From Coriobacteriia bacterium (GTDB lineage: Bacteria; Actinomycetota; Coriobacteriia; Anaerosomatales; Anaerosomataceae): 32,000 nucleotides of DNA. Each line of letters begins with the position of its first letter. Positions within the stretch are counted from its first letter, which is position 1. The stretch is from assembly GCA_049658145.1 (NCBI GenBank), contig JBASOJ010000051.1, positions 13,449 to 45,448 of the forward strand, written 5' to 3'. The notes beneath the pieces are model-generated. The model worked only from the letters and a program-made list of their open reading frames with translations. It made no database searches and was not told the origin of the DNA. This document shows, piece by piece, positions 2,745 to 28,713 of the stretch. The position numbers were made by a program, and so were the translations under genes.

Positions 2745-3127
2745 CGTTTCGCCGCCACACGGCGTACGCCCTCCAGCACGAGTACGGCCGCAAGAGCACC
2801 GGCCGTATCGACGGCCCAGTCCGCGACATCGGGCACGCGCCCGGGGACGAACGACTGGTGGAACTCATCGGTGATCCCGTAGAAGGAGGCGATCGCCACC
2901 GCGGTCGCCAGGGTCGCCCAGGGGCGTACGGCCCTCGGCAGGGAGAGCAGCAGGATCGCTCCCAGTACCGCATACTCGATGAAGTGGGCGAGGGAGCCGT
3001 AGGTGCCGGGAACCGCAGAGCCGGGCAGCGATGACAGCCCGAAGATCACCGCCATCCAGGCGACCGCCACCAGGAGCGCTCCGGTGCGTATAGCTCGTTC
3101 CGGCCCCATGGCACCTCTCGTTCTCAT
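2738..3127 (-). CDS. VanZ family membrane protein
   Basis: 129 aa, 4 TM segments. HFIEYAVLG and ITDEFHQSFVPGRVPDVADW are VanZ-like signatures. Converges on pilT with a 7-nt overlap. Confidence 0.75.
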   Translation of the reverse strand: MRTRGAMGPERAIRTGALLVAVAWMAVIFGLSSLPGSAVPGTYGSLAHFIEYAVLGAILLLSLPRAVRPWATLATAVAIASFYGITDEFHQSFVPGRVPDVADWAVDTAGALAAVLVLEGVRRVAAKRQ

Positions 3128-3192
3128 CCGTCGACCCGTACCGTAAGCTCTGCCAACGTGATTCTACCGTCTCGTCATGTCCCGGAGGACCA

Positions 3193-4095
3193 GTGCGCCG
3201 AAGTACCGCTCTCATCGCCGTGGTCGTGTCGTCGGCATGCTTCGCCACGCTGGCGGTCCTCGCCCGGCTCGCGTACGCCGAGGGCGGGCGTCCGCTCCCC
3301 CTGCTGACGTGGCGGTTCGCCGTCGCTGCTGCGGTGATGGCGACGTTCCTTGCCCTGCGCCAGCGGTCGGCACTTGTCGCGGGCGTCCGGGATATCCCGC
3401 GATACGCCCTGTTGTCGCTCACGGGTTACGGAGCCGCGTCGATCTGCTTCTTCTTCGCACTACGGCACCTCAGCGCATCGGTCGGGACGCTCTTGCTCTA
3501 CGCGTACCCCGCGATCGTGGCAGTGATAGAGAGCGTACTCGATCACCAGCGGCTTCCGGTATCGCGTGTGGTGGCTGTCGCGCTCACTTTCGCCGGGTGC
3601 GCTCTCGCCGCCGGACTGCTGGACTCCGCCGTAGTCGTGAACGTGCCCGGTGTCCTGCTCGCGCTCGGCGCGGCATCCGCCTACGCGCTGTTCACGTTGT
3701 TGTCGAGTCGACTCATCGCAGACCGATCCAGACTCGTGCTGATGACGTACACGTTCGGCATCTCGGCGATCGGCATCGGCGTTGTGACACTCCTCGCCGG
3801 AGAGTCGCTCGTGCCGACCGGATGGACGCCACAGCTGTGGCTCATCCTCGGCCTGATGGTCCTGCTGCCCACGTATGCGGCCGTGGTCCTGTTCTTGAGT
3901 GGCATTCGGGCGCTGGGCCCGTCCCGTGCATCGCTCATCTCGACGATGGAACCTGTGTTCACCGTCGCTCTGGCCGGAGTCGTCCTGGGAGAGCGCATGA
4001 CCGCGACACAGTGGGCGGGCGCCCTGCTCGTGATCGCCGGGATCGCGCTCGCCGAGCGTCCGCGCGGTGTCGTTGAGGTGCCAGCCGCCGTCTAG
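3193..4095 (+). CDS. EamA/DMT family transporter
   Basis: 300 aa, about 10 TM segments arranged as two EamA-like halves. GTG start preceded by GGAGGA. Confidence 0.8.
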   Translation: MRRSTALIAVVVSSACFATLAVLARLAYAEGGRPLPLLTWRFAVAAAVMATFLALRQRSALVAGVRDIPRYALLSLTGYGAASICFFFALRHLSASVGTLLLYAYPAIVAVIESVLDHQRLPVSRVVAVALTFAGCALAAGLLDSAVVVNVPGVLLALGAASAYALFTLLSSRLIADRSRLVLMTYTFGISAIGIGVVTLLAGESLVPTGWTPQLWLILGLMVLLPTYAAVVLFLSGIRALGPSRASLISTMEPVFTVALAGVVLGERMTATQWAGALLVIAGIALAERPRGVVEVPAAV

Positions 4096-4754
4096 CCGGC
4101 TATCAGCACCACGAGCGCACGCGCGGCCCAACCGCCGATGGTGATCGCCGCCTGGCCGCCGAAGGCCCACGCGGTCGCGGTCCGGACATCGCGCTCGGGC
4201 ACGCCCGCCCCGGTGAGGCCCCGGTACGTGAGCACCGAGGACACTGCCAGCGCGACAAGCTGGAGTAGCCACGTCGCTGCGACCGCGTAGGGGAGCAGAG
4301 CGGCCAGATACGCGGTCGAGAGACGTGCCCGGCTGATCGCCCCCTTCGGCATCAGGACCGCGAGGATGATGAACCGCGCGCCCGCCCACAGCACCTGGCT
4401 GCCCACGCCGACGGCGACTGGCAACCAGAGGCTTGTGGAAGTCGCAGTGCTGATGCCGGTCGCGATGAGGCCGAAGATGAACGCACGCAGCCCCACGGCT
4501 GTCGCGACGCGTCGTGCGACATCGTCAGTCGTGTCCCAGGGAAGCGCAGAACTGGCGTGATAGGTTCGCAGTAGCGACCACTGGTGGACCCACGCGTTGG
4601 CGATGGCGCGCACCCCGGGGCCCACCCGCCGAACCAGCGAAACGGCTCCCGCAATCGTCCGGCGCCAGGCAGCGAAGAGCCCCGCGGGCAGCGACCCCAC
4701 GGCGGGGTCGTCCACACGGGACTCTGATGGTCCTTCTTCGGCGTTCGTGGGCAT
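4092..4754 (-). CDS. hypothetical integral membrane protein
   Basis: 220 aa. Hydrophilic N-terminus followed by 4-5 hydrophobic segments, with high GC3 in this frame. No family recognised. Confidence 0.55.
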   Translation of the reverse strand: MPTNAEEGPSESRVDDPAVGSLPAGLFAAWRRTIAGAVSLVRRVGPGVRAIANAWVHQWSLLRTYHASSALPWDTTDDVARRVATAVGLRAFIFGLIATGISTATSTSLWLPVAVGVGSQVLWAGARFIILAVLMPKGAISRARLSTAYLAALLPYAVAATWLLQLVALAVSSVLTYRGLTGAGVPERDVRTATAWAFGGQAAITIGGWAARALVVLIAG

Positions 4755-5586: not shown

Positions 5587-6747
5587 GTGGACAAGAAGCC
5601 GCGGGCACAGTCCGAACGCGACATCACATGGCGCATTGTCGCGTTCGGCGCCGGCATTGGCGCGGTCTTCCCGCTGGTGGCAAACCTGCTCGTCGTGCCG
5701 CGGAACACCCTCGCGCTCGTGTTGTTCTGGATCATGTCGATCGCCAGCGGCGTGGTGGTCGGCGCGGCGTGTGCCAGGCTTTTCCGGCGCGCGGTCGAGA
5801 AGACGCTGCGGAATGTGTTGGAGAACGCCACATCGACACTCGGCTTCGCCCCCTCTACCGTCGAGGGTGAGGACGCCCTCACGGTCGAGATCGGGCGTGT
5901 GTTCGGCACCGCTGCGAGTCTGCTCGGCCAGCTCCGTGCCGCCACCGAGAACATCCGTGCCGTCAGCGCCGAGGTGATGGCCGCCACCGAGCAGCAGGCC
6001 TCCGGAGCGGCGGAGCAGGCGGCTGCGGTGACGCAGACATCCGCGACGGTCGAGGAGCTCGCGCAGACCTCGAGCCAGATCGCCGACAACTCCGAGTCGG
6101 TGGTCCGCATCGCCGAGAAGACGCTCGCCACCGCCGAAGACGGCATGAGTGCTGTTGCCGCCACCGCCGTCGGCATCGAGGAGATCCGCGAGACGACGAT
6201 GCAGTCGTCCGACCGGATCCTGGCCCTTGGCGAGCGCAGCCAGGAGATAGGCCGCGTACTCTCGATCATCGATGAGATCGCCGAGCAGACGAAGATACTC
6301 GCACTCAACGCCGCCATCGAGGCGGCACGCGCCGGCGAGGCGGGGAAGGGCTTCTCGGTCGTGGCCGAGGAGATCCGCAAGCTCGCCGACTCGGTGACCG
6401 AGTCCACCAACGAGATCGGACGCGTGGTGCGTGAGATCCAGGCCTCGGCCTCGGCGCTCATCATGCAGACGGAGAAGGCCGCGAACAAGGTGGCCGAGGG
6501 CCAGCAGCTCGCGCTGAACACGCAGAGCTCGCTTGAGCGCATCGTGTCCCAGGTGGAGCAGACCACCGACGCCGCGAAGCAGATCTCGATCGCGACCCAG
6601 CAGCAGCGGACCGCTTCGGACCAGGTCGTCGTCTCGATGCGGGAGGTGGCGCAGGTCTCACAGCAGGCGGCCGATGCCTCGCGAAAGATCGCAGCCGCCA
6701 TCATCGAGCTCACCAGGCTCGCGGATTCGCTGGCGGTTGGCCGATGA
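5587..6747 (+). CDS. methyl-accepting chemotaxis protein (two N-terminal TM helices, no recognisable sensor domain)
   Basis: 386 aa. The highly conserved MCP hairpin-tip [38 protein letters not shown] is present, within Q/E/A/S-rich coiled-coil heptads. GTG start after AGGGGG. Confidence 0.9.
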
Positions 6748-7205
6748 CCGGCTCGGTCGCGGAGCGACTCCTCTCTGGCGGGCTCGAACTCCCGGTGCCT
6801 GCCGCGGCGCTCGGGGCCTACGTGCCCGCGGTGCGCGCGGGAAACCTGGTCTTCACATCCGGCCAGCTCCCGATGCTCGCGGGCGAGCTGATCGAGCGCG
6901 GGCGTGTAGACGACGATGTGAGCCCCGAATCCGCGGAGCGCTGCGCGCGGCAGTGCGCGCTCAACGCTCTCGCCGCCGCTTCGACCGTGTGCGATCTCGA
7001 TGAAGTCGTGCGGGTCGTCAAGCTCGTCGGGTACGTGGCCTCGGCACCGGGTTTCGCGGGACAGCCGGGCGTGATCGACGGCGCCAGCGGTGTTCTCGCG
7101 ACGGCGTTCGGCGAAGCGGGGCGACACGCGCGGGAGGCCGTCGGGGTCGCGGCTTTGCCGCTGGGCGCGCCCGTCGAGGTGTCGCTCATCCTGGAGTTGC
7201 GCTGA
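6744..7205 (+). CDS. RidA/YjgF family protein
   Basis: 153 aa. [14 protein letters not shown] and the C-terminal [14 protein letters not shown] are typical of YjgF/RidA. Its ATG overlaps the MCP stop (ATGA, 6744-6747). Confidence 0.8.
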
Positions 7206-7287
7206 GCCGATCTTCGGGGCAGGAATGGGCGCGTCTCTGCCGAATAGCGCGTGAAGAAGGACTCCGGTGTCCATGCCGGTGTTCGTA

Positions 7288-7316
7288 TTGTCCGGCACCA
7301 AGGGTTCGGCTATCGT
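7288..7316 (+). promoter_or_regulatory. possible promoter upstream of the multihaem cytochrome gene
   Basis: TTGTCC (7288-7293), 17 nt spacer, TATCGT (7311-7316). Weak match to consensus. Confidence 0.25.
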
Positions 7317-7401
7317 TTGTCGGAGGACGGCCGAGTGGGCTGTCTCTGTGTGCTGGGCATTTGGGGCTTTCCCTGGGACGGCGAGCGAGGAGAGGGTGCG
7401 C

Positions 7402-9528
7402 ATGGCAAAGGATCCGAAGGAGAAGAAGGAGAAGAAGCCGTCAGGGTGGAAAGACCCGATCAGGCGCCCCCGGTACATCATTTGGGCAGGCGTTGCGCTG
7501 ATCGGCCTTTGCGCGATCATCCTTGTCGGCTTTGCCGGATCGTCCACCGACTGGTTCTGCGGAACGCTGTGCCACTCGGTGCAGGGTGACGCGGTCGCCG
7601 CGTACGACCAGGGCACGCACAACAAGGTCAACTGCCTGACGTGCCATGAGCCGGTCAATGGCGACCCCGTGATCTTCGCCTATCGCAAGGTGGAGGCCGG
7701 TGTGCTTGGCGCGTATCAGCTGGCGACCACGACGTACTCGTCGCCGCTGAATCCGAACAGCCACCTCGCGCTCAACCGCAGTGAGATGGACATGTCGGAC
7801 GGTCACTGCACCCAGTGCCACTCGCTCGAGAACCGGGACATCACTCCGAGTGAAGGCATCATCATCAACCACAACGCCCATACGGATCGGGAGATCAACT
7901 GCACCGCGTGCCACAATCGTGTGGCGCATCCCGAAGACGGGCTCGAGACCATCGCGACCAATCCCGAGACGGGTGAGCCTGCGGCCAAGCACGCTGACTT
8001 CATGACCATGACCGCGTGCTTCCGCTGCCATACCCTCACCGATGAGTCTCCGTCCGGTAAGGAGTTCAAGGCGCCTGGTACCTGCGCGACGTGCCATTCC
8101 GCCGACTTCGACCTCAAGCCCGCGAACCATGACGACTCGAACTTCTACCCGGCCGGTCACGCGGACCTCGCGATGATGGAGATCGACCATGCCACCGGGC
8201 GTCCGGCCGAGGACGTCATCCGTCCCGTCGAGTATGGCGAGGGCGAAGAGGGCGGCGAGGAGGCTGCGGGAGGCGCGGAGCCCGAGAGCGCTCGCTCCGA
8301 AGAGAGCGACCCCGAGGTCCTTCCCGTTCCGCATGTGTGGGAAGTGGACTACTGCTCCACGTGTCACATCGAGGGCACCTTCTGCACCGGGTGCCACGGT
8401 ATGGAGATGCCGCACTCGGAGGAGTTCGAGACCAAGACCCACCCCGAGACCGCAGCCACGATGATCGACAAGTGCGAGTTCTGCCACCAGCAGTCGACTA
8501 CGTACTTCTGTGACAACTGCCATCACGGCACCAAGGTCGACTGGGCCTTCGATGCCGCTTCGCCATGGCAGAGCCAGCACGCTAAGACCGTGGTCGAGAA
8601 GGGCGTCGCCGGGTGCCTCGGCGCATGCCACGAGCAGCAGTTCTGCGTGGATTGCCACACGGCCCTCAAGCCGGTTCCGACCTCGCACGCGGCTGCGGAC
8701 TGGCTGCATGCCGGTCTCACCGTGACGTCGTACCCGGACGGCCACGCAGTGGCCAGCGCCTCTCACGCGCTTCTGGCCCAGAAGTCGATCGAAGCGTGCG
8801 AGGTATGTCACGGCACCGGTGGCACCGCTTCTCAGTTCTGCGTGAACTGCCACCAGCTCGAGATCCCGCACCCGGACCAGTTCAAGGTCAATCACGTCTC
8901 TGGTCGCAACACGCCGCAGGTGTGTGCCAACTGCCACAAGGCCGTCGAGCTCTGCTCCGACTGCCACCACAAGGGTGCCGTGAACGGCACGCCGTGGCAG
9001 CGTCAGCACCCGGTGACCGTTGCCGCGGACGGCGCGAATCCGTGCTTCGAGAAGTGCCACCAGGACAAGCAGTTCTGCGTTCAGTGCCACACCACGCTGA
9101 AGGCGGTTCCGACGTCCCACACGGTGGGCGACTGGACGCACCGCGCGACCGATGCCGGTGCGGCTCACCAGGTCGCGTACCAGGCGGCGACGGACTCGTG
9201 CGACTACTGTCACGGTGACGGCGGCGTGAAGGCGGCGTTCTGCCAGAACTGCCACCAGGTCGAGATGCCGCACGCCGGCGGATATGCCGACGCGGGTCAC
9301 CAGGCCGATCTGACCACCAACGGTGTTCAGAGGCCCGTGTGCCAGAACTGCCACGCGCAGGCGTTCTGCGACAGCTGCCATCACAAGGGTTCTGTCGCCG
9401 ATCAGAAGTGGGTGTTCTATCACCCGGAGATCGTGGCCAAGGACGGCGCACAGCCGTGCTTCGAGTGCCATGAGCCGACGTTCTGCTCGTACTGCCACGT
9501 CAACAAGGCAGCCACCCTTACGCGCTAG
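7402..9528 (+). CDS. membrane-anchored multihaem cytochrome c: 21 CxxCH + 3 CxxxCH, NapC/NrfH-like N-terminus plus three tandem hexahaem modules
   Basis: ATG 7402 follows GAGGAGAGGG. Lys-rich cytoplasmic N-terminus, then one TM helix (YIIWAGVALIGLCAIILVGFAG). The segment TDWFCGTLCH...VNCLTCHEP resembles NapC/NirT. An acidic linker EYGEGEEGGEEAAGG follows. I counted 24 haem-binding motifs in the translation. Confidence 0.9.
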   Translation: MAKDPKEKKEKKPSGWKDPIRRPRYIIWAGVALIGLCAIILVGFAGSSTDWFCGTLCHSVQGDAVAAYDQGTHNKVNCLTCHEPVNGDPVIFAYRKVEAGVLGAYQLATTTYSSPLNPNSHLALNRSEMDMSDGHCTQCHSLENRDITPSEGIIINHNAHTDREINCTACHNRVAHPEDGLETIATNPETGEPAAKHADFMTMTACFRCHTLTDESPSGKEFKAPGTCATCHSADFDLKPANHDDSNFYPAGHADLAMMEIDHATGRPAEDVIRPVEYGEGEEGGEEAAGGAEPESARSEESDPEVLPVPHVWEVDYCSTCHIEGTFCTGCHGMEMPHSEEFETKTHPETAATMIDKCEFCHQQSTTYFCDNCHHGTKVDWAFDAASPWQSQHAKTVVEKGVAGCLGACHEQQFCVDCHTALKPVPTSHAAADWLHAGLTVTSYPDGHAVASASHALLAQKSIEACEVCHGTGGTASQFCVNCHQLEIPHPDQFKVNHVSGRNTPQVCANCHKAVELCSDCHHKGAVNGTPWQRQHPVTVAADGANPCFEKCHQDKQFCVQCHTTLKAVPTSHTVGDWTHRATDAGAAHQVAYQAATDSCDYCHGDGGVKAAFCQNCHQVEMPHAGGYADAGHQADLTTNGVQRPVCQNCHAQAFCDSCHHKGSVADQKWVFYHPEIVAKDGAQPCFECHEPTFCSYCHVNKAATLTR

Positions 9529-9547
9529 GCAGCGTGACGGTGCGATC

Positions 9548-9581
9548 GAAAGGACCCGGCCGGAAACGGCCGGGTCCTTTC
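9548..9581 (+). terminator. strong stem-loop after the cytochrome gene (15-bp stem, GAAA loop)
   Basis: GAAAGGACCCGGCCG-gaaa-CGGCCGGGTCCTTTC, 20 nt after the stop codon. There is no clear U-tract. Confidence 0.6.
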
Positions 9582-9649
9582 GCATTCATGCCAGAAACCC
9601 GGCGCAGGACCTTTGCCTTGACCGGGCGACCATGTATGATAACGGCTCA

Positions 9650-9787: not shown

Positions 9788-10462
9788 TTGGACGCGTTCT
9801 TCACGGCTATCGGCTACGGGCTCTGTCATCAGTTGCCCGAGCGGTCGTTCTTCGGCGGCGGGTATCAGCTGCCCGTGTGCGCCCGGGACACCGGTATCTA
9901 CTTCGGTTTCGCCCTCGGTCTTCTCGCGCTCGCGATGCTTGCCCGCGGCTCCCGCCCGCAGGAGTTGCCTCGCTGGCCGGTACTGCTCCTCATCGGCGTG
10001 TTCATCGCGGCGATGGGTGTCGACGGAGTCACGTCGTATGCGGGCCTGCGCTCGTCGACGAACGACTTGCGGCTGATCACCGGTCTCGGGACCGGCTGGG
10101 GACTGGCTGCGCTCACGTTCCCGATGCTGAACGCACAGGTATGGGTCAGGCCCAGTGTGACCCGGACCCCGCAGGGCGCTCGCGAGGTGGGGATCTGGCT
10201 CGGGCTGCTCGTCGCGTCGTTCGTGTTGGTGCGGTGGGGGCTACCGCTCCTGGGAATCGGCTATCCGCTGCTGCTCGTGCTCGCGATCGTCGCGACGTTC
10301 GCCGCGATCAACCTGGTGTTCGTCGGCCTGATGCCGCCGTTCGAACGGCGTGCCCGGCGTCTGCGGGAGCTGTGGCTGGCACTGACCGTCGCCAACGGCC
10401 TGACGCTGCTCGAGTTGGCCGGGGCGGCCTGGCTGCGGTCGTTCGCCGAGAGCCTGCTGTAG
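9788..10462 (+). CDS. DUF2085-like membrane protein
   Basis: 224 aa. N-terminal CHQLPERSF...LPVCARDTGIYFG is the DUF2085 signature as I recall it. 5-6 TM segments. TTG start 7 nt after GAGGGAG. Confidence 0.65.
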   Translation: MDAFFTAIGYGLCHQLPERSFFGGGYQLPVCARDTGIYFGFALGLLALAMLARGSRPQELPRWPVLLLIGVFIAAMGVDGVTSYAGLRSSTNDLRLITGLGTGWGLAALTFPMLNAQVWVRPSVTRTPQGAREVGIWLGLLVASFVLVRWGLPLLGIGYPLLLVLAIVATFAAINLVFVGLMPPFERRARRLRELWLALTVANGLTLLELAGAAWLRSFAESLL

Positions 10463-10531
10463 CGCCGGCGCATCGTGTCAGAGTCGGGCCGTACGCTTCA
10501 TTCGAACATCTGTTCGAAGGAGGCGATCGGC

Positions 10532-10912
10532 GTGGTACAACTCACTCTGCCCGACTGCGGAGCAACCGGCACACTCCCCGACGTGGTCACGAACCTCACT
10601 CGCCGCTGGGCGCGCGAATTCGGGGACGGCGGCCATCTCGTGGTCGCCTCGCAGGCAACGGAGTCGCGATTCTCCGAGTGGGGGGCGCGCATCCTGACGC
10701 ACCGCGAGCGTGAGCGTGTCGATGCCTACTTCAACGCGGTCGTAAGGCGAGCTCTGATGCGGGAGCATGAGTCCGGAGCTCGATCGGCGCGCCGACGGTG
10801 GGTGGAGGCCAGCATCGTGGCAGACCTGTGCGCCGCAGGCTGGGATGCCGAGCGCGCGGCCGAGGAGGCACGGATGGTGACAGCGGGCCCGGTGTGCGGC
10901 ACGGCCGCCTAG
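10532..10912 (+). CDS. hypothetical protein
   Basis: GTG 10532 is preceded by AAGGAGG (ORF-track start 10475 is less likely). 126 aa, no recognisable family. Its stop shares the CTAG with the convergent lipoprotein gene. Confidence 0.45.
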   Translation: MVQLTLPDCGATGTLPDVVTNLTRRWAREFGDGGHLVVASQATESRFSEWGARILTHRERERVDAYFNAVVRRALMREHESGARSARRRWVEASIVADLCAAGWDAERAAEEARMVTAGPVCGTAA

Positions 10913-14183: not shown

Positions 14184-14288
14184 GGCGCGTTCGCACGTCT
14201 CTGCGTCGCACGTCCCTGAAGTCCGGACTTGTACGAGTTTGTAACTCGGGGGTACATTATCGCAAACACACGATGTGGGGACGGGATC

Positions 14289-14948
14289 ATGACGGTATCG
14301 AAGCGCGATCCATCCGCTATCCCTGAAGGCGTCATCGAGCGCCTTCCGGCCTACCTGAACGTCCTCATGCAGCTGCGCGCCGAAGGGGCGCGCACGGTGT
14401 CCTCCGCGCGCCTCGGTGAACTCACCTCGGTGAACCCCGCGCAGATCCGGCGCGACCTCACGCACTTCGGGTCATTCGGCAAGCGCGGCGTGGGATACGA
14501 CGTCGGCGCGCTGGTCGAACAGATTCAGCGGATACTGGGCTCCGACCACATCCACCGGCTTGCACTCGTCGGAGCCGGCAACCTCGGCTCGGCGATCGCC
14601 GGTTACAGCGGGCTAAAGCAGCACGGTTTCGTGGTGACCGCCATCTTCGACAACGATCCCGCCAAGATCGGCACGCGCATCGGCAAGATCGTGGTGCAGC
14701 CGATCGAGGAACTCGACGGTGCGCTCCGGGCCCAGGAGATCCGCATCGGGGTCGTGGCAGTGCCTTCGGAGGCCGCCCAGCAGGTAACCGATGAGTTGGC
14801 GAGCGCCGGCGTGCGCGTGATACTCAACTACACCCCGGTGATCGTCGGGGTTCCGGAGGGTGTCATGTTGCACAACAGCGATCCGGTACAGGAACTGCTG
14901 CATACCCTCTACTACCTCTCGCGCCAGGAGGGCGTGGCGCGGGTATAG
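14289..14948 (+). CDS. rex: redox-sensing transcriptional repressor Rex
   Basis: Winged-helix N-terminus IERLPAYLNVL...NPAQIRRDLTHFGSFGKRGVGYDV, followed by the Rossmann motif LVGAGNLGSA. Confidence 0.9.
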   Translation: MTVSKRDPSAIPEGVIERLPAYLNVLMQLRAEGARTVSSARLGELTSVNPAQIRRDLTHFGSFGKRGVGYDVGALVEQIQRILGSDHIHRLALVGAGNLGSAIAGYSGLKQHGFVVTAIFDNDPAKIGTRIGKIVVQPIEELDGALRAQEIRIGVVAVPSEAAQQVTDELASAGVRVILNYTPVIVGVPEGVMLHNSDPVQELLHTLYYLSRQEGVARV

Positions 14949-17592: not shown

Positions 17593-20148
<2,556 letters not shown>

Positions 20149-20151
20149 CAG

Positions 20152-21495
20152 ATGGCCAGACCCCGGAGCACATGGCTCTGCCAGCAGTGCGGGCATTCCG
20201 CGCCGCGTTGGCTCGGCCGGTGCCCCGAATGCGGCGAGTACGGCACGTTCGTGGAGGAGGCCCAGTCGTCGCAGGTAGTGGGCGGTTCGTCCGCTGTCGG
20301 TACGGCCCGAGCCGTCACCCCGCTCGCGGAGGTCGCCCTCTCCCCGGAGATGCGCTTCACCACGGGGATAGGGGAGCTCGACAGTGTGCTGGGTGGTGGC
20401 CTGGTACGCGGCTCGGTCGTGCTCATCGGTGGTGAGCCCGGCATCGGCAAGTCGACCCTGCTGCTTCAGGCGGCCGGCGCGCTCGGCAACCGCGGCGTAC
20501 CCGTGCTCTACGTCTGCGGCGAGGAGTCCGTGCAGCAGGTCCGGTCGCGCGCGGACCGGGTCGGCGTGTCTTCGGGCATCACGCTGCTGCCCGAGGTGGA
20601 TGCTTCCGCCATCGAGGCGACGATCCTGGCCGAGCGGCCACAGGTGGTAATCGTCGATTCCATCCAGACGCTCTACGACCCCGGCCTGGACGGGGTCCCG
20701 GGGAGCGTCGGGCAGGTGCGGGCCACGGCCGCACGCCTCGTGCGTCTGGCGAAGACCAACGACGTCACGCTGCTCGTCGTCGGTCATGTGACCAAGGACG
20801 GGACCATCGCGGGTCCGAGGGTCCTGGAGCATGTGGTGGACACGGTGCTGTACTTCGAGGGCGACTCCGACCATGCGTTCCGGATCGTCCGGGCGGCCAA
20901 GAACCGCTTCGGCTCGGTCTCCGACATCGGGATCTTCGAGATGGCCGAGGACGGTCTCGCCGAGGTCGGACAGCCATCGGGCGCGCTGCTCGCGGAGCGC
21001 ACGGGCGGGGTGCCCGGCTCGGTGGTGATGGCGACGATGGAGGGTAGCAGGCCCCTACTCGTCGAAGTGCAGGCGCTCGTCACGCCGACGTACCTGCAGG
21101 TTCCACGCCGCCTCTCCGTGGGTATCGAGACCGCACGATTGCTGCAAGTCCTGGCGATCCTCGAGCGGCGGGCCGATGTCGGACTCGGCTCGTACGATGT
21201 CTACGTCTCCGTTGCGGCAGGGGTGCGGGTGACTGAGCCTGCCGTCGATCTGCCGCTTGCGCTCGCGCTGGCGTCATCGCGCGCGGACCGTGCCGTGCCC
21301 GCCGACGCTGTGGCCTTCGGCGAGATCGGGCTCACCGGCGACGTCCGCGGAGTGCCGCATGCGGCCGCCCGGCTACGTGAGTCCTCACGGATGGGGTTCG
21401 GGCGTGCATTCGGCCCCCAGTCCAAAGGTGCCAGCGCACTGGATATGATCGGCGTTCGCACGGTGGCCGATGCCCTCAAGGTGGCACTCGGGTAG
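20152..21495 (+). CDS. radA: DNA repair protein RadA/Sms
   Basis: 447 aa. N-terminal zinc finger CQQCGHSAPRWLGRCPECG, Walker A GGEPGIGKST, KNRFG motif and a Lon-like C-terminus. Confidence 0.95.
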   Translation: MARPRSTWLCQQCGHSAPRWLGRCPECGEYGTFVEEAQSSQVVGGSSAVGTARAVTPLAEVALSPEMRFTTGIGELDSVLGGGLVRGSVVLIGGEPGIGKSTLLLQAAGALGNRGVPVLYVCGEESVQQVRSRADRVGVSSGITLLPEVDASAIEATILAERPQVVIVDSIQTLYDPGLDGVPGSVGQVRATAARLVRLAKTNDVTLLVVGHVTKDGTIAGPRVLEHVVDTVLYFEGDSDHAFRIVRAAKNRFGSVSDIGIFEMAEDGLAEVGQPSGALLAERTGGVPGSVVMATMEGSRPLLVEVQALVTPTYLQVPRRLSVGIETARLLQVLAILERRADVGLGSYDVYVSVAAGVRVTEPAVDLPLALALASSRADRAVPADAVAFGEIGLTGDVRGVPHAAARLRESSRMGFGRAFGPQSKGASALDMIGVRTVADALKVALG

Positions 21496-21570
21496 CGAAT
21501 GTGGTGGCGCGGCGGCGGTCGTGGCAGAATCCAGGTAGAGTCAGCGTCTGTCAGAGGTGAGGAGGGCACG

Positions 21571-22623
21571 ATGCGCGAAGAGGAGATGCACTCGGCGCTG
21601 CAGTTCGTCGCACCGGGCACGCCACTCAGGCAGGCGCTGGACAACGTCATCGCCGGAAAGACCGGCGCGCTGATCGCGATCGGCGACGAGACCGGTGTGG
21701 ACTCCCTCAGTAACGGCGGCTTCGTCATCGACGCGTCCTTCACCCATCAGCGCCTCTTCGAACTGGCGAAGATGGACGGCGCCATCCTGCTCGACGCCGA
21801 AGCAACCCGCATCCGCAGGGCGAACGTCCACCTCATGCCCGACCCTTCGCTGCCGACCACCGAGACCGGCATGCGCCACCGCACCGCCGAGCGCGTGAGT
21901 CGCCAGACACAGGCGTTGGTCGTGTCGGTGTCTCAGCGTCGCGAGGTCGTCACCCTTTATCGCAACGGGGAGCGCATCTCGCTCGCCGACATCGATGTCG
22001 TGCTCGCCAAAGCAAGTCAGGCGGTGCAGACCCTCGAGCGTTACCGCACCCGCCTCACCGAGGTGTCGACGCATCTCACCGAACTCGAGTTCGAGGACCT
22101 CGCCACATTCGGGGACGTCGCCGTGGTGCTGCACCGTTTCGAGATGCTGAGACGTGTGGGTCGCGAGCTCAGCCGATACATAATCGAGCTCGGCACCGAG
22201 GGGCGTCTCGTGCGCATGCAGGCCGATGAGCTCACGGCGGGCGCAGAAGACGACTTCCTCATGTTGGTCCGCGACTACATGCCCGACTCGGGACCGCGCA
22301 AGGCTGTCGCGGCCCTCGCCCGCATCGCGGCCCTCACCCCTGAGCAACTCCTCGACCCCGGTGCACTCGCGGTGGCCCTGGGATATGCCCCCACGGCCGA
22401 CATCGACGAACAGCACGTACGGCCCAAGGGCTACCGGTTGCTCCATCGCGTGCCGCTCCTGCCCGCTACCGTGATCAACCGGCTCGTCGACCGCTTCGGC
22501 TCACTCAAAGCCATACTCGCCGCGACCGAGCAGCAACTCGATGATGTCGACGGTGTGGGGGCGCGACGCGCAAGGGCCATCAGTGACGGTCTGCGTCGCA
22601 TGCGCGAACGGGCCGTGCTGTAG
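21571..22623 (+). CDS. disA: DNA integrity scanning protein DisA (diadenylate cyclase)
   Basis: 350 aa. DAC domain (GALIAIGD, DGAILLD, GMRHRTAERVS) and a C-terminal HhH. ATG after GAGGAGGG. Confidence 0.92.
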   Translation: MREEEMHSALQFVAPGTPLRQALDNVIAGKTGALIAIGDETGVDSLSNGGFVIDASFTHQRLFELAKMDGAILLDAEATRIRRANVHLMPDPSLPTTETGMRHRTAERVSRQTQALVVSVSQRREVVTLYRNGERISLADIDVVLAKASQAVQTLERYRTRLTEVSTHLTELEFEDLATFGDVAVVLHRFEMLRRVGRELSRYIIELGTEGRLVRMQADELTAGAEDDFLMLVRDYMPDSGPRKAVAALARIAALTPEQLLDPGALAVALGYAPTADIDEQHVRPKGYRLLHRVPLLPATVINRLVDRFGSLKAILAATEQQLDDVDGVGARRARAISDGLRRMRERAVL

Positions 22624-22762
22624 GGCGCCGACGCGCACCTGTGCTACGATCGCCTCATTCATACCATCGTAGGTATCGTCGGCCCGCCGGTCACCCGGCC
22701 CGGCACCGGAGGAGGTGAAGGCGCTCGTCAGAAGCGGCATCTGACGTTCGGGCGTCGAGATC

Positions 22763-23815
22763 ATGTTCGTACAGCTCGCTCGTGTATTCCTGATCACGGT
22801 GGGCGCACTCGGCGGGTTCGCGGTCTCACAGCAGATCGACTGGACGGCTCAGACGGGGTTCTCAGAAGGCTACGTCATCTTCATCATCATCATACTGGGA
22901 GCCTCGATAGGGTACGTACTGGGCGGCATATTCGGCCGGGAACTAGAAGCGGCCTACCGCCGGATCCACTCACGACTCGCCGAAGTCCACACACCTACGC
23001 TCATGCTGGGCGCGGTCGGTCTGCTGGTTGGGCTGCTCGTGGCCTTCCTCATCTCGTCTTCGCTCCTCAAGTACCTCGAGAACCCGAGGTGGCTTGGCTT
23101 TCTCGTCACTGCGCTGCTCTACGTGTTCTGCGCCTATGTCGGCGTGAGCCTCTTCATGTTGCCGGGTCGCGATGAGGCGCTCGCATGGTCGTTTGGCTCG
23201 TCGGCACCGGTGGACAGCCGCCCTCCCAAGCTGCTCGACACAAGCGCCATCATCGATGGGCGGTTTGCGGAGCTCGCGAAGTCGGGCCTGCTCGAAGGTC
23301 CGTTGCGTGTGCCGCGATTCGTGCTCGTCGAGCTGCAGACGCTCGCGGACTCGGCTGATGATGCCCGTCGTGCCAGGGGTCGGCGTGGGCTCGATCTGCT
23401 GACCACGATGGCAGCGGGGGAGTACGGTGTGCTCGTCATGGAGAGCGACTTCTCCGAGATCCCCACTGTGGACGCGAAACTCGTGAGGCTCGCGCTCTCC
23501 AGCGGCGGCACGCTCGTCACCGTCGACTACAACCTCACCAAGGTGGCGCGCGTCGAGGGCGCGGCGGTGCTGAACGTGAACGAAGCGGCCGAGGCGTTGC
23601 GCCCTGTGCTGCTTCCCGGCGATGCGTTGCACATCGCGCTCACCAAGGAGGGCAAGGAGGCCGGGCAGGGGGTCGGCTACCTCGGCGACGGCACCATGGT
23701 CGTCGTGGCCGACGGCGCGCGCTCGGTCGGCACGGACATCGATGTCGAAGTGACCTCGGTCCTCCAGACGAGTGCCGGCAGGATGGTGTTCGCACGACTC
23801 AAGGAGCTTCCATGA
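22763..23815 (+). CDS. PIN/TRAM domain membrane protein (YacL-like)
   Basis: 350 aa. 4 N-terminal TM segments, a PIN-like region (LLDTSAIIDGR) and a C-terminal TRAM-like beta region. Syntenic position matches Bacillus yacL. Confidence 0.8.
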   Translation: MFVQLARVFLITVGALGGFAVSQQIDWTAQTGFSEGYVIFIIIILGASIGYVLGGIFGRELEAAYRRIHSRLAEVHTPTLMLGAVGLLVGLLVAFLISSSLLKYLENPRWLGFLVTALLYVFCAYVGVSLFMLPGRDEALAWSFGSSAPVDSRPPKLLDTSAIIDGRFAELAKSGLLEGPLRVPRFVLVELQTLADSADDARRARGRRGLDLLTTMAAGEYGVLVMESDFSEIPTVDAKLVRLALSSGGTLVTVDYNLTKVARVEGAAVLNVNEAAEALRPVLLPGDALHIALTKEGKEAGQGVGYLGDGTMVVVADGARSVGTDIDVEVTSVLQTSAGRMVFARLKELP

Positions 23816-24525
23816 ACGCCGCGATCATCGTCGCGGGTGGAGGCGGAGAACGCACCGGTCTCGACGGAGGCAAGCAGCTCGCCGCGGTGGCGGGTCGGCC
23901 TGTGCTGTACCACACCGTCTCGGCGTTCGTCGCGTGTGCGGCGATCGATGCGATCGTTGTGGTGACTCACCCGGAGCGCGTAGAGGAGTATCGGGCTGCC
24001 GCTGTTGCGCCCCTCGGTTCCCCCAAGATCGTCGGCGTGATCGGCGGCGGCGGATCGCGGCAGGAGTCGGTGGCACGCGGGCTCGCGGCTGTTCCCGCCG
24101 ACGCGGATGTCATCGCCGTGCACGACGGTGCTCGTCCTCTCGTGACTCCCGCACTCATCGCCGAGGCGATCGACGCGCTGGATGCGGACGCAGCACTCGA
24201 TGGAGTCGTCGTCGGCCACCCCTCGTATGACACGCTGAAGCTCGTCGGCGCGCGGGACCGGGTCGCAGGTACCCTCGACCGCACCACGGTATGGGCAGCC
24301 CAGACACCGCAGGTGTTCCGTGCGCCGGTTCTGCGCCGCGCGTACGCGAGGGCCGAGGCCGAGGGATTCGCGGCCACCGACGACGCGTCGCTGGTCGAGC
24401 GCGCCGGCGGCTCGGTGCGGATGCTGGCGGGGCCACGTGACAACATCAAGGTCACCGTTCCGGAAGACATGCTCATCGTCGAACGCCTACTGCGGACGAG
24501 AGTGGAAGGAGCGGGCGATGAGTGA
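23812..24525 (+). CDS. ispD: 2-C-methyl-D-erythritol 4-phosphate cytidylyltransferase
   Basis: 237 aa. IVAGGGGERTG...KQL, VHDGARPL and QTPQVF motifs. ATGA overlap with the upstream gene. Confidence 0.92.
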   Translation: MNAAIIVAGGGGERTGLDGGKQLAAVAGRPVLYHTVSAFVACAAIDAIVVVTHPERVEEYRAAAVAPLGSPKIVGVIGGGGSRQESVARGLAAVPADADVIAVHDGARPLVTPALIAEAIDALDADAALDGVVVGHPSYDTLKLVGARDRVAGTLDRTTVWAAQTPQVFRAPVLRRAYARAEAEGFAATDDASLVERAGGSVRMLAGPRDNIKVTVPEDMLIVERLLRTRVEGAGDE

Positions 24526-25000
24526 CCTCAGAGTCGGCATCGGCTACGACGTGCATGCTTTCGCGGACGGCCGTGCGCTCGTTCTCGGGGGCGTCGAGAT
24601 CCCGCATGATCGAGGCCTGCTCGGCCATTCGGACGCCGACGTACTCGTCCACGCGCTGATGGACGCGATCCTTGGAGCGCTTCGCGAGGGGGATATCGGC
24701 AGGCTCTTCCCCGACACCGATCCGGCGTATGCCGGCGTCTCGTCGATCGATCTGCTCTCGCGTGTCGCCGCCCTGGCCGAAGAGCGCGGCTGGCGGCTGG
24801 CCGATGCCGACACGGTGCTGGTGCTCGAGCAGCCGCGCGTCGCACCGTACCGTGACGAGATGCGTGATCGCATCGCCGCCGCGCTCGGTGTGGACGCGTC
24901 GCGCATAGGCGTGAAGGCTACGACCACCGAGGGCCTCGGCTTCGAGGGCAGGGCCGAGGGTGTCGGCGCTCAGGCGGTCGTCTTGTTGGAGCGCATATAG
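24518..25000 (+). CDS. ispF: 2-C-methyl-D-erythritol 2,4-cyclodiphosphate synthase
   Basis: 160 aa. RVGIGYDVHAF...GHSDADVLVHALMDAILGA is canonical IspF. 8-nt overlap with ispD. Confidence 0.95.
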   Translation: MSDLRVGIGYDVHAFADGRALVLGGVEIPHDRGLLGHSDADVLVHALMDAILGALREGDIGRLFPDTDPAYAGVSSIDLLSRVAALAEERGWRLADADTVLVLEQPRVAPYRDEMRDRIAAALGVDASRIGVKATTTEGLGFEGRAEGVGAQAVVLLERI

Positions 25001-25009
25001 ACGCCCGTG

Positions 25010-25039
25010 TTGACACGTCTTCGAGCGTGACATGATAGT
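25010..25039 (+). promoter_or_regulatory. putative promoter upstream of cysE
   Basis: TTGACA (25010-25015), 17-18 nt spacer, TGATAGT (25033-25039). Confidence 0.4.
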
Positions 25040-25084
25040 AGTGCGATTCGTCGCCCGGAAAGCATGAAAGGGGGTCGTGCGCCG

Positions 25085-27287: not shown

Positions 27288-27294
27288 TGCGGCG

Positions 27295-28556: not shown

Positions 28557-28575
28557 GAAAACTCATCGCCGGAGG

Positions 28576-28594
28576 TCAGGCTTGTTCAGGCTTG
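28576..28594 (+). repeat. tandem direct repeat TCAGGCTTG-T-TCAGGCTTG (10-bp phase) just upstream of the sigH -35
   Basis: Read directly from the sequence. The second copy ends 10 nt before TTGACA. Confidence 0.6.
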
Positions 28595-28604
28595 CCAGAA
28601 CTCG

Positions 28605-28632
28605 TTGACACGCTCCCTTCCGATGTTATCGT
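28605..28632 (+). promoter_or_regulatory. putative sigH promoter
   Basis: TTGACA (28605-28610), 16 nt spacer, TATCGT (28627-28632). Confidence 0.45.
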
Positions 28633-28713
28633 CAGTAGTGCTCCACAAGTACGGCGATTCACAAGCGGCCCTTAGAGGCCAATCATTCCTCCCCCTCGAG
28701 ACCGGGGGGCTTC

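What the first reader, a model, noticed from the sequence alone, without database searches (positions are those of the whole stretch)
7402..9528. 24-haem, single-TM-anchored cytochrome c in a genome with Gram-positive-type gene order: candidate extracellular electron-transfer wire
Seen:
- 708 aa.
- Lys/Arg-rich N-terminus and one TM helix (N-in by the positive-inside rule).
- 21 CxxCH plus 3 CxxxCH motifs, about one haem per 30 residues.
- The first about 270 residues carry 6 motifs and begin like NapC/NirT/NrfH quinol dehydrogenases (TM helix, then WFCGTLCH...VNCLTCHEP).
- An acidic Gly/Glu linker (EYGEGEEGGEEAAGGAEPESARSEESDPE) joins this part to three repeated hexahaem modules.
Established: NapC/NrfH-type proteins take electrons from the menaquinol pool, and long multihaem chains mediate metal or electrode respiration in Geobacter, Shewanella and Thermincola.
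Inference: a quinol oxidase module is fused directly to an approximately 18-haem extension. That would make a one-polypeptide conduit from the membrane out through the wall. This is unusual for a high-GC organism with a Bacillota-like core, and I recognise no characterised orthologue.
Basis: partly seen in the sequence, partly recalled or inferred. Interest (0 to 1): 0.8.

Follow-up and report, generated by a model that had tools for sequence, protein, structure and literature searches.

The report
Membrane-anchored 24-haem electron-wire cytochrome
A real, strongly conserved gene of a group of anaerobic Gram-positive Actinobacteria (Coriobacteriia of the OPB41/Anaerosomatales type) encodes a membrane-anchored protein with 24 haem groups, most likely a built-in cable that carries respiratory electrons between the cell membrane and partners outside it; a related gene switches on at a working electrode, but the protein itself has never been studied.

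Summary
In detail: window 7402-9528(+) encodes a 708-aa protein with 21 CxxCH and 3 CxxxCH motifs, against 0.5 expected by chance. It has an N-in anchor helix, a six-haem head, an acidic insert and three homologous hexahaem modules. The head is a NapC/NirT-family domain (PF03264 46.6 bits against a cut-off of 24.1; hhalign to NrfH 95%). It is not an NrfH, NapC or TorC equivalog. The C-terminal module matches no Pfam or NCBIfam family and no solved structure. It recurs in about 900 metagenomic protein clusters as "head + n modules" (12, 18, 24 and 26-32 haems). The organism is not Bacillota-like but a Coriobacteriia-type actinobacterium. The gene is a vertically inherited core gene at one fixed housekeeping locus in at least 80 species-level genomes. 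All 48 haem cysteines are invariant, and 47 invariant His plus one invariant Met can fill all 48 axial positions, so this is an electron-transfer protein, not an enzyme. The orthologue in biocathode strain EMTCatB1 (gene 1d0898) is about 17-fold induced at a current-consuming cathode. The reading as a trans-wall, one-polypeptide wire fed by quinol remains inference, and cultured relatives had no detectable quinones. Verdict: a new variant of a known kind, of moderate to high interest.

The parts
7387..7396 (+). Ribosome-binding site GAGGAGAGGG, 5 nt upstream of the ATG. The context GCGAG(C)GAGGAGAG is conserved in distant relatives.
7402..9528 (+). Coding sequence of the 708-aa, 24-haem c-type cytochrome (stop TAG 9526-9528). 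Apoprotein 76.7 kDa, about 91.5 kDa with 24 haems.
7402..7473 (+). Cytoplasmic Lys/Arg-rich tail (aa 1-24; 10 K/R, pI 10.4). It carries the motif G15-x-K-D-P-x2-R-P-R-x3-W28, conserved at 90% or more.
7474..7539 (+). Single transmembrane signal-anchor helix (aa 25-46), N-in.
   Evidence: (AF2 helix 22-47)
7540..8226 (+). NapC/NirT-family (NrfH-like) head with six haem sites (aa 47-275). The motifs start at C53 (CxxxCH), C78, C136, C167, C206 and C228. Invariant extra ligand candidates are H73, H157, H160, H176, H197, M203, H243 and H253.
8227..8319 (+). Acidic Gly/Glu insert (aa 276-306; 12 D/E and 1 K/R; pI 4.05). AF2 models it at low confidence. It is the only hypervariable spacing in the family (haem 6 to haem 7 = 36-140 aa).
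8320..8766 (+). Hexahaem module A (aa 307-455), made of three di-haem units. Motifs at 318, 328, 358, 370, 405 (CxxxCH) and 415. Invariant His at 338, 347, 375, 393, 429 and 455.
8767..9168 (+). Hexahaem module B (aa 456-589). Motifs at 466, 480, 508, 518, 548 (CxxxCH) and 559. Invariant His at 490, 498, 523, 536, 573 and 589.
9169..9525 (+). Hexahaem module C (aa 590-708). Motifs at 600, 614, 647, 656, 686 and 695. Invariant His at 624, 633, 661 and 674. The protein ends 9 residues after the last CxxCH motif, with no LPXTG or other wall anchor.
9545..9587 (+). Very stable hairpin just after the stop codon: a 16-bp perfect core CGAAAGGACCCGGCCG / GAAA / CGGCCGGGTCCTTTCG, followed by CAUUC. It is terminator-like, so the gene looks like its own transcription unit.
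   Evidence: -37.3 kcal/mol, z = -6.8
7264..7289 (+). Terminator-like hairpin plus T-rich tail after the upstream mcp-ridA pair. It separates that pair from the cytochrome gene.

Best explanation
The gene encodes a genuine, purifying-selected, 24-haem c-type cytochrome.

Anatomy (shown):
- A short basic cytoplasmic tail.
- One N-in anchor helix.
- On the outer face of the membrane, a NapC/NirT-family (NrfH-like) head carrying six haems.
- A variable acidic insert.
- Three tandem hexahaem modules, each built from three di-haem units of the form CxxCH-x3-9-CxxCH-x5-H-x8-H.
- All 48 axial positions can be filled by 47 invariant His and one invariant Met, so the protein is an electron-transfer chain and not a catalytic multihaem enzyme.

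Mechanism (inferred): the head exchanges electrons with the membrane's lipophilic carrier (menaquinol/menaquinone), or possibly with a neighbouring membrane oxidoreductase. The 18-haem extension relays them away from the membrane into or through the Gram-positive wall. The acceptors or donors there could be Fe(III) minerals, electrodes, partner cells or further cytochromes. Transfer could run in either direction. The number of modules sets the reach, because relatives carry 1, 2, 3 or 4-5 modules on the same kind of head.

The protein is a vertically inherited core component of the OPB41/Anaerosomatales-like Coriobacteriia rather than an acquired island gene.
For: The gene is real and conserved:
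- 464 homologues were found.
- In 114 full-length homologues of 44-91% identity, all 48 haem Cys and all 24 proximal His are 100% conserved, including the three CxxxCH motifs.
- The motif count is 24 against 0.5 expected by chance.

Ligand count: 23 further invariant His plus invariant M203 are available. There is no CxxCK motif.

Head:
- PF03264 scores 46.6 bits against a gathering cut-off of 24.1, over residues 32-177.
- The family profile finds NrfH 2j7a_C at E = 1.3e-5.
- hhalign to NrfH gives 95% probability, E = 3.4e-8.
- The whole protein aligns collinearly with a 32-haem protein that has a canonical FCxSCHEM NapC head (P0141, E = 9e-31).

Modules:
- They are 35-41% identical to each other.
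- A profile search finds 900 cluster representatives at E <= 1e-3.
- A series of 12, 18, 24 and 26-32 haems exists on NapC-type heads.
- The same module is also fused to cytochrome b/b6-type and FdnI/HydC-type membrane anchors, which are other quinone-interacting modules.

Topology: the tail is basic with 10 K/R, and AF2 predicts a helix at residues 22-47 in a model of mean pLDDT 82.4.

Context: the synteny mcp-ridA-CYT-DUF2085...PNP-rex-greA-lysS-clpC holds in 44-62 of 80 species-level genomes, down to 40% cytochrome identity.

Biology of relatives:
- The EMTCatB1 orthologue 1d0898 was identified by matching gene order.
- It shows 2347 TPM at a closed-circuit cathode, against 137 (BrES) and 130 (open circuit). 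The authors name it as a candidate for direct electron uptake.
- Cultured Anaerosomatales have a Gram-positive wall and 17-18 multihaem cytochromes, and one is an obligate Fe(III) reducer.
- EMTCatB1 is annotated with CcsA, CcdA, MqnA and UbiE.
Against: - Respiratory quinones were 'not detected' in both cultured Anaerosomatales.
- The first haem motif of the head is an invariant CxxxCH.
- The NrfH haem-1 ligand Met49 aligns with Val60. NrfH Lys82 aligns 1-2 columns away from the invariant K96.
- No partner cytochrome, reductase or maturation gene sits in the conserved neighbourhood.
- There is no wall-anchoring motif.
- The acidic insert is modelled at low confidence and pTM is only 0.58.
- The last di-haem unit has no trailing His pair of its own. 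Full six-coordination holds only if ligands are shared between units.
- Nothing is known about expression, haem loading or localisation in this organism.
- I could not establish whether the two cultured strains carry the orthologue.
Confidence: 0.6

Rival explanations
1. An oversized CymA/NrfH-type hub. The protein oxidises quinol at the membrane and simply distributes electrons to soluble or membrane-associated reductases in the wall zone (for example nitrite, sulfur-compound or DMSO-type reductases). It does not reach the cell surface or act as an extracellular wire.
For: The head is NapC/NirT-family. EMTCatB1 is reported to encode nitrite respiration and 18 c-type cytochromes. There is no wall anchor or surface-targeting motif. 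Anaerosoma tenue has a similar multihaem repertoire but does not reduce Fe(III).
Against: No reductase gene is linked to the cytochrome in any of the 80 loci examined. Eighteen extra haems, and a variable module number of 1-5, are hard to justify for a short hand-over. The orthologue is induced by cathodic current, not by a soluble acceptor.
Confidence: 0.2
2. An electron store (bio-capacitor). The 24 low-spin haems buffer respiratory electrons when external acceptors or donors are intermittent. They do not form a directed conduit.
For: Very high haem density with all sites apparently six-coordinate. The gene is a core gene kept across very different habitats: subsurface, digesters, termite gut and a biocathode.
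Against: The architecture is a linear modular repeat on a membrane-coupled head with variable length, which suits reach rather than storage. Storage and conduction are not mutually exclusive, so this is a weak rival.
Confidence: 0.1
3. A catalytic multihaem enzyme of the HAO, octahaem reductase, MccA or NrfA kind, acting on a soluble nitrogen or sulfur compound.
For: The module profile gives weak hits to hydroxylamine oxidoreductase (E = 2.4e-4) and to nine-haem and sixteen-haem cytochromes. OcwA of Thermincola is structurally related to such enzymes.
Against: The hits are driven by CxxCH spacing and carry high compositional bias. There is no CxxCK motif and no Cx15CH-type or other special site. 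47 invariant His plus 1 invariant Met leave no obviously open axial position. No family model is matched.
Confidence: 0.04
4. Not a functional gene: a chance ORF, a shadow frame or a decaying pseudogene in a high-GC genome.
For: High-GC DNA produces long spurious ORFs. Two of them overlap this locus on the minus strand.
Against: 24 motifs against 0.5 expected. GC3 is 0.84. There are 464 homologues with invariant haem sites. The RBS is conserved. The orthologue is highly transcribed.
Confidence: 0.01

Closest known systems
NrfH of Desulfovibrio vulgaris (PDB 2J7A/2VR0), the NapC/NirT-family membrane-anchored tetrahaem menaquinol dehydrogenase
   Same: One N-terminal anchor helix is followed directly by haem 1. 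Haems 1-4 align with it (family profile E = 1.3e-5; hhalign 95%). PF03264 scores above its gathering cut-off.
   Different: The first motif is CxxxCH. Val stands where NrfH has the haem-1 ligand Met49. The TIGR03153 score is 51.5 against a cut-off of 134. There is no nrfA neighbour. There are 20 additional haems.
CymA of Shewanella and ImcH/CbcL of Geobacter: inner-membrane multihaem quinol oxidoreductases that start extracellular electron transfer (own knowledge)
   Same: Same proposed job: coupling the quinone pool to an extracytoplasmic haem chain. ImcH also combines a NapC/NirT-like part with extra haems. CbcL-like fusions (FdnI/HydC-type b cytochrome plus multihaem) carry the same C-terminal module as found here (P0241).
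   Different: Those proteins carry 4-9 haems and hand electrons to separate periplasmic and outer-membrane cytochromes in diderm cells. Here 24 haems sit in one polypeptide of a monoderm. No equivalog model is matched.
Thermincola potens Gram-positive EET chain: membrane, 'periplasmic', wall and surface multihaems ending in OcwA (Carlson 2012, own knowledge; Costa 2019, PMC6703420)
   Same: A Gram-positive cell wall has to be crossed by haem-to-haem transfer. The chain starts with a membrane-associated multihaem.
   Different: Thermincola is proposed to use several separate cytochromes of 6-10 haems. Here a single protein may do much of the path. No sequence relationship to OcwA was detected (no PDB hit).
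Gene 1d0898 of Coriobacteriaceae sp. EMTCatB1 (Kobayashi et al. 2021, PMC7943316)
   Same: It is the orthologue: 55% identity and the same position, mcp-CYT-DUF2085...greA-lysS-clpC. It is the only family member with functional data (about 17-fold higher at a current-consuming cathode).
   Different: [quoted passage not shown] Its architecture, family and conservation were not analysed, and the evidence is transcript abundance only.
MtrA / MtrC decahaem cytochromes of Shewanella and HmcA 16-haem cytochrome of Desulfovibrio
   Same: Long bis-His haem chains used as insulated wires. There are weak profile similarities (PF22113 31.8 bits; MtrC E = 1.4e-6, nine-haem 2.5e-5, 16-haem 2.6e-4).
   Different: The similarities are motif-spacing matches with high bias. 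There is no porin partner, none of the beta-barrel domains of MtrC, and no Hmc membrane-complex genes. The di-haem repeat unit is distinct and absent from Pfam and NCBIfam.

Membership tests
NapC/NirT cytochrome c family (Pfam PF03264) | Score above Pfam's gathering cut-off for the N-terminal region | tested here: met
   The N-terminal 280 aa score 46.6 bits against a cut-off of 24.1 (E = 4.1e-12), covering residues 32-177 and profile positions 18-170 of 174. The hit was absent from the full-length scan; I attribute this, without testing it, to composition correction for the Cys/His-rich remainder. Homologues P0001, P0002, P0009 and P0092 score 38-50 bits.
NapC/NirT cytochrome c family (Pfam PF03264) | Single N-terminal transmembrane anchor helix, haem domain on the outer face | tested here: met
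   The tail carries 10 K/R. The hydrophobic stretch is residues 25-46, and AF2 predicts a helix at 22-47. The outer-face location follows from the positive-inside rule and from the site of haem attachment, so it is an inference.
NapC/NirT cytochrome c family (Pfam PF03264) | Four canonical CxxCH haem sites in the conserved order | tested here: inconclusive
   Four sites align with NrfH haems 1-4 (C53, C78, C136, C167). The first is CxxxCH in 100% of 114 homologues.
NapC/NirT cytochrome c family (Pfam PF03264) | Quinol dehydrogenase activity | not testable with these tools
   Invariant K96 lies 1-2 alignment columns from NrfH Lys82. Quinones were not detected in cultured Anaerosomatales. EMTCatB1 is annotated with MqnA and UbiE.
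NrfH (NCBIfam TIGR03153, equivalog) | Score at or above the trusted cut-off (134.2 bits) | tested here: not met
   41.3 bits for the full-length protein and 51.5 bits for the N-terminal domain alone.
NrfH (NCBIfam TIGR03153, equivalog) | CxxCHxM motif providing the Met ligand of haem 1 | tested here: not met
   NrfH Met49 aligns with V60, which is at least 90% conserved in the family.
NrfH (NCBIfam TIGR03153, equivalog) | Adjacent nrfA (pentahaem nitrite reductase) gene | tested here: not met
   The neighbours are mcp, ridA, tRNA-Pro and DUF2085. No cytochrome or reductase gene was found next to it in the window or in the 80 related loci.
NapC / TorC (NCBIfam TIGR02161, NF007906, TIGR02162) | Score at or above the trusted cut-offs (310-478 bits) | tested here: not met
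   NapC/NirT subfamily 22.2 bits and NapC 20.2 bits. TorC was not detected for this protein.
MtrC/OmcA outer-surface decahaem cytochromes (PF22113 domains II/IV) | Pentahaem domains II/IV alternating with beta-barrel domains I/III | tested here: not met
   PF22113 scores 31.8 bits against a cut-off of 30 for the full-length protein, but only 24.7 bits on the N-terminal domain. The AF2 model has only short helices and no beta domains. PDB profile hits to MtrC carry high bias.
Unnamed 'head + n hexahaem modules' class (defined here from metagenomic relatives) | A module of three di-haem units (CxxCH-x3-9-CxxCH-x5-H-x8-H), repeated in tandem behind a membrane-anchored quinone-type head | tested here: met
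   There are three modules 35-41% identical to each other. The unit is conserved in 27 diverse module sequences. There are 900 cluster representatives, and heads of NapC, cytochrome b6 and FdnI type occur.
Extracellular electron-transfer (EET) cytochromes of Gram-positive bacteria (functional class) | Exposure beyond the membrane or wall and electron exchange with minerals or electrodes | not testable with these tools
   The evidence is indirect only. The orthologue 1d0898 is induced about 17-fold at a working cathode. The lineage includes an obligate Fe(III) reducer.

The most novel reading that the evidence does not exclude
A single polypeptide acts as the complete trans-envelope conduit of a Gram-positive cell. 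A NapC-type head plugged into the membrane is fused to an 18-haem rod. The number of modules (1-5 in relatives) is tuned to wall thickness. The rod lets OPB41/Anaerosomatales-type Actinobacteria exchange electrons in both directions with minerals, electrodes or syntrophic partners. This would be an ancestral core trait of the whole lineage. The head might work without a conventional quinone pool, since none was detected in the cultured members.
Probability: 0.3. Interest if true: 0.8.

Novelty: new variant of a known kind. Interest (0 to 1): 0.55.

Why it matters
How monoderm bacteria move respiratory electrons across a thick wall is still known from very few systems: the Thermincola multi-protein chain and the flavin-based route of Listeria. 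OPB41/Anaerosomatales-type Coriobacteriia are widespread in the deep subsurface, mud volcanoes, anaerobic digesters, termite guts and bioelectrochemical reactors. Their respiratory hardware is essentially unknown.

This gene is:
- universal and syntenic in that lineage;
- the only family member with a direct link to electrode-dependent expression;
- built on a simple 'membrane head + n identical modules' plan that also occurs in hundreds of uncharacterised metagenomic proteins.

If confirmed, it would give a marker gene for electroactivity in this lineage. It would also provide a minimal, one-gene Gram-positive conduit for synthetic biology, and a new haem-wire fold (the di-haem repeat) for structural study. 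The apparent absence of quinones in cultured relatives makes the identity of the head's electron partner a sharp, testable question.

Tried and rejected
- A full-length Pfam scan missed the NapC/NirT domain. Rescanning the N-terminal 280 aa alone recovered it.
- PDB sequence searches with the single protein found nothing useful. With the family profile, only NrfH was found. With a 27-sequence module profile, only weak, bias-driven hits to MtrC, nine-haem, HAO and HmcA cytochromes appeared.
- NCBIfam has no model at trusted cut-off for either half.
- I searched for a Rex/CRP-type operator upstream. None is present in the window or its close relatives (best 7 of 14). One is present only in a more distant sub-clade.
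- Rfam found nothing near the gene.
- I tried to find out whether Anaerosoma tenue or Parvivirga hydrogeniphila carry the orthologue.
- Table S9 of PMC7943316 (the cytochrome list) was truncated in the held copy.
- Carlson 2012 is not held.
- I rejected equating NrfH Lys82 with K96. The two alignments place them 1-2 columns apart.
- I rejected a Tat signal reading of the RRPR tail, because c-type apocytochromes are matured outside after Sec export (own knowledge).
Full report
**Observation.** The ORF at 7402-9528 (+) is exactly as described.
- It encodes 708 aa with 21 CxxCH and 3 CxxxCH motifs, the latter at residues 53, 405 and 548. It contains 49 Cys and 54 His.
- The start ATG is preceded by GAGGAGAGGG.
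- Shuffling the protein's own composition gives 0.5 motifs on average (maximum 4 in 2000 shuffles). The other frames of the whole window contain only 5 such motifs.
- GC3 in this frame is 0.84.
- The long minus-strand ORFs overlapping the locus are the usual high-GC shadow frames.
- The tail is basic (10 K/R in 24 residues). One hydrophobic helix follows. Six motifs lie within residues 53-232. The acidic stretch occupies residues 276-306. Three repeats follow, 35-41% identical to each other.

**A real, conserved gene, and whose it is.**
- The protein has 464 homologues in the 5.8-billion-protein collection. Full-length relatives run from 91% down to 44% identity. Where named, they are 'NapC/NirT family cytochrome c' or 'cytochrome c3 family protein' from Coriobacteriia or Actinomycetota MAGs.
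- In one-genome-per-species GTDB contigs, 84 stretches encode a relative and 80 were fetched. Nearly all are Coriobacteriia- or Actinomycetota-labelled MAGs. The closest is UBA6100 at 85%. One is labelled Anaerosomatales, several come from termite guts, and one is Coriobacteriaceae sp. EMTCatB1 from a thermophilic electromethanogenic biocathode.
- The window's other genes are greA, lysS, clpC, radA, disA, a PIN-domain gene, ispD, ispF, cysE, cysS, a SpoU methylase, yacP and a sigma factor. The same order is shared by these actinobacterial MAGs.
- So the host is a high-GC monoderm of the OPB41/Anaerosomatales kind, not a Bacillota-like oddity.

**Conservation of the haem sites.**
- Across 114 full-length homologues, all 48 haem-binding Cys and all 24 proximal His are 100% conserved, including the three CxxxCH variants. 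113 of the 115 sequences compared (the query and its 114 homologues) have 24 motifs.
- A further 23 His are invariant, grouped by domain as follows:
  - head: 73, 157, 160, 176, 197, 243, 253
  - module A: 338, 347, 375, 393, 429, 455
  - module B: 490, 498, 523, 536, 573, 589
  - module C: 624, 633, 661, 674
- Met203 is also invariant.
- That gives 47 His plus 1 Met for 48 axial positions. With the absence of CxxCK or other special sites, this points to a chain of six-coordinate electron-transfer haems, not a catalytic multihaem enzyme.
- One caveat concerns the repeat logic. Each di-haem pair is followed by two His, so the last pair (motifs 686 and 695) has no trailing His of its own. The count closes only if ligands are shared between neighbouring units. 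In that case H243 and H253 of the head would serve module A. I could not test this, because model coordinates are not exposed.

**The head.**
- The full-length Pfam scan showed only generic c7, c3 and MtrC-domain hits.
- The N-terminal 280 residues alone score 46.6 bits on PF03264 (NapC/NirT; gathering cut-off 24.1) over residues 32-177. I attribute the missed full-length hit to the composition correction for the Cys/His-rich remainder; this was not tested.
- The family profile finds D. vulgaris NrfH as its only significant solved relative (E = 1.3e-5). hhalign gives 95% probability (E = 3.4e-8) from the anchor helix to haem 4.
- The protein is not an equivalog of any named member. NrfH scores 51.5 bits against 134, and NapC 22 bits against 310.
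- The NrfH haem-1 ligand Met49 aligns with Val60. The first motif carries a one-residue insertion. The invariant K96 sits 1-2 columns from the NrfH quinol-site residue Lys82.
- Two extra haems (motifs 206 and 228) complete a six-haem head.

**The extension.**
- The C-terminal 399 residues match no Pfam or NCBIfam family.
- A 27-sequence module profile gives only weak, bias-laden PDB hits to MtrC, nine-haem cytochrome c, HAO and HmcA.
- Foldseek finds nothing for the AF2 model (mean pLDDT 82.4, pTM 0.58).
- A profile of the three modules finds 900 cluster representatives at E <= 1e-3, and 275 at E <= 1e-10, among 1.84 billion proteins.
- Many of these have the same plan: anchor helix, a canonical FCxSCHEM NapC head, then many haems. 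They form a series:
  - 12 haems: L076, three tandem copies in L077, L080 and P0199.
  - 18 haems: P0134, P0136 and P0146, all with natural C-termini.
  - 24 haems: this family.
  - 26-32 haems: P0140, P0141, P0149, P0154, P0170 and P0206, and a 28-haem Armatimonadetes protein in L079.
- P0141 (32 haems; PF03264 62 bits) aligns collinearly with the window protein over its whole length (E = 9e-31).
- The same module is also fused to cytochrome b/b6-type and FdnI/HydC-type membrane anchors.
- The unit of construction is a di-haem repeat, CxxCH-x3-9-CxxCH-x5-(P)H-x8-H, with three per module.
- The module's repeated attachment to three kinds of quinone-interacting anchor, and the variable module number, are the best sequence-level arguments that it is an electron-relay extension whose length is adjustable.

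**The acidic insert.** Among 113 family members with 24 motifs, every inter-motif spacing is nearly fixed except haem 6 to haem 7. That spacing ranges from 36 to 140 residues (median 91) and is always strongly acidic. In P0074 the insert is essentially absent. The insert is therefore dispensable and variable, either a surface loop or a spacer. It is not a conserved hinge, and the head and module A can be directly contiguous.

**Context.**
- The gene has a 196-nt upstream gap, with a terminator-like hairpin after mcp-ridA.
- A very stable hairpin follows its stop codon (-37.3 kcal/mol, z = -6.8). tRNA-Pro comes next, with its own promoter-like site. The gene looks monocistronic.
- tblastn of the window's neighbours against the 80 loci shows the same order in most of them: T2SS-type ATPase ... 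mcp-ridA-CYT-DUF2085 ... SAM_HAT-HD-PNP-rex-greA-lysS-clpC. The counts out of 80 are DUF2085 62, mcp 56, PNP 54, rex, greA and lysS 48 each, and clpC 44. Many loci are cut by contig ends. The order holds down to about 40% cytochrome identity.
- The gene is thus an old, vertically inherited core gene at a housekeeping locus. No other cytochrome, reductase or maturation gene lies beside it.

**What is known about relatives.**
- Khomyakova et al. 2022 (PMC9686372) cultured the first OPB41 members, now the order Anaerosomatales. Both have Gram-positive walls and 17-18 multihaem cytochromes together with cytochrome c biogenesis genes. One, Parvivirga hydrogeniphila, is an obligate Fe(III) reducer. 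Respiratory quinones were 'not detected' in either.
- Kobayashi et al. 2021 (PMC7943316) studied EMTCatB1 on a methane-producing cathode. [quoted passage not shown]
- It lies between 1d0897 (an mcp, 'tar/frzCD') and 1d0899 ('predicted membrane protein'), upstream of greA (1d0908) and clpC (1d0910). This is exactly the order around the 55%-identical homologue in L018, so 1d0898 is the orthologue.
- It reads 2347 TPM at closed circuit, against 137 with BrES and 130 at open circuit. [quoted passage not shown]
- The same annotation lists CcsA, CcdA, MqnA, a UbiA-type prenyltransferase and UbiE.

**Most likely mechanism.**
- Shown: the anatomy, the conservation, the family of the head, the modular series and the induction of the orthologue at an electrode.
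- Inferred:
  - The head exchanges electrons with menaquinol/menaquinone, or with a membrane partner if quinones are truly absent.
  - The 18-haem extension carries them away from the membrane into or through the wall.
  - Transfer can run outward (Fe(III)) or inward (cathode).
- I put this general reading at about 0.6. The strong form, in which one polypeptide spans the whole wall as a continuous wire, I put at about 0.3.
- Rivals and their estimated probabilities:
  - a CymA-like hub for wall-zone reductases, 0.2;
  - an electron store, 0.1;
  - an enzyme, 0.04;
  - a non-gene, 0.01.

**Novelty and score.**
- The kind is known: NapC/NirT-anchored multihaem proteins, and multihaem electron transfer in Gram-positive bacteria. 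The family is already in databases under generic names, and one orthologue has been flagged by transcriptomics.
- What is new is the defined architecture (six-haem NapC-type head, acidic insert, 3 x hexahaem modules), the unrecognised di-haem repeat module and its 'head + n modules' series, and the status of the gene as a syntenic core gene of a whole actinobacterial lineage.
- I rate it a new variant of a known kind, with interest 0.55.

Noticed in passing
Loci L022, L024, L025, L026, L028, L029, L030, L031, L034 and L065, at -50 to -56 nt from the cytochrome start codon. Absent at window 7142-7401.: A Rex/CRP-like palindrome, (T/A)TGTG-N8-(T)TCAC(A/G)T, sits at a fixed position upstream of the cytochrome gene in the 45-50%-identity sub-clade. 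Sixteen loci score at least 10 of 14 against TTGTGAAN4TTCACAA, versus 2.6 expected from shuffles. The window and its close relatives lack it (best 7 of 14). rex is a conserved neighbour about 5 kb downstream (window 14229-14948). It lies directly next to the distant homologues in L076 and L077.
   Followed up: partly
window 7402-7485 (aa 1-28): The cytoplasmic tail carries the motif G15-x-K17-D18-P19-x2-R22-P23-R24-x3-W28 (family consensus GFKDPVRRPRYIIW), conserved at 90% or more. That is far more conservation than a positive-inside anchor needs. It could be a docking or insertion signal.
   Followed up: no
window 9788-10462 (DUF2085) and 10475-10912. EMTCatB1 genes 1d0899 and 1d0900.: The DUF2085 membrane protein is the most constant neighbour of the cytochrome (62 of 80 loci). 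In EMTCatB1, 1d0899 (DUF2085) and the next gene 1d0900 (hypothetical) are also higher at the working cathode: 92 versus 16 and 45 TPM, and 1249 versus 151 and 318 TPM. A functional link is possible but cannot be separated from the general synteny.
   Followed up: partly
window 5587-7205: A methyl-accepting chemotaxis-type gene (386 aa) overlaps by 4 nt with a RidA/YjgF-family gene. This pair precedes the cytochrome in 45-56 of 80 loci, although the cultured relatives are described as non-motile.
   Followed up: no
window 25985-26067 (-): ARAGORN calls a tRNA-Ala(cgc) on the minus strand inside the cysS coding region. Rfam's tRNA model does not confirm it, while it confirms the other five tRNAs. 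It is probably a false positive.
   Followed up: yes
L077 9356-13006, and L076 1234-4002: Distant relatives carry several tandem paralogues of a minimal form with 11-12 haems (NapC-type head plus one module, about 300 aa) next to a Rex-family regulator gene.
   Followed up: partly
window 2865-4754: Overlapping ORFs on both strands have no Pfam hit at E <= 1e-3. In the syntenic region of L082 the called genes are VanZ-like (-), EamA transporter (+) and an unknown 224-aa protein (-). The plus-strand ORF 3177-4076 is therefore probably the EamA-type gene, and the minus-strand ORF 3460-4389 probably a shadow frame.
   Followed up: partly
window 7402-9528 (method note): A whole-protein hmmscan failed to report PF03264 even at E <= 1, although the isolated N-terminal domain scores 46.6 bits. 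Long Cys/His-rich tails can hide real domains, presumably through HMMER's composition correction.
   Followed up: yes
window 17593-29379: The gene order clpC-radA-disA-PIN(yacL-like)-ispD-ispF-cysE-cysS-SpoU methylase-yacP-sigma factor mirrors the Bacillus subtilis ctsR-clpC ... sigH region.
   Followed up: yes
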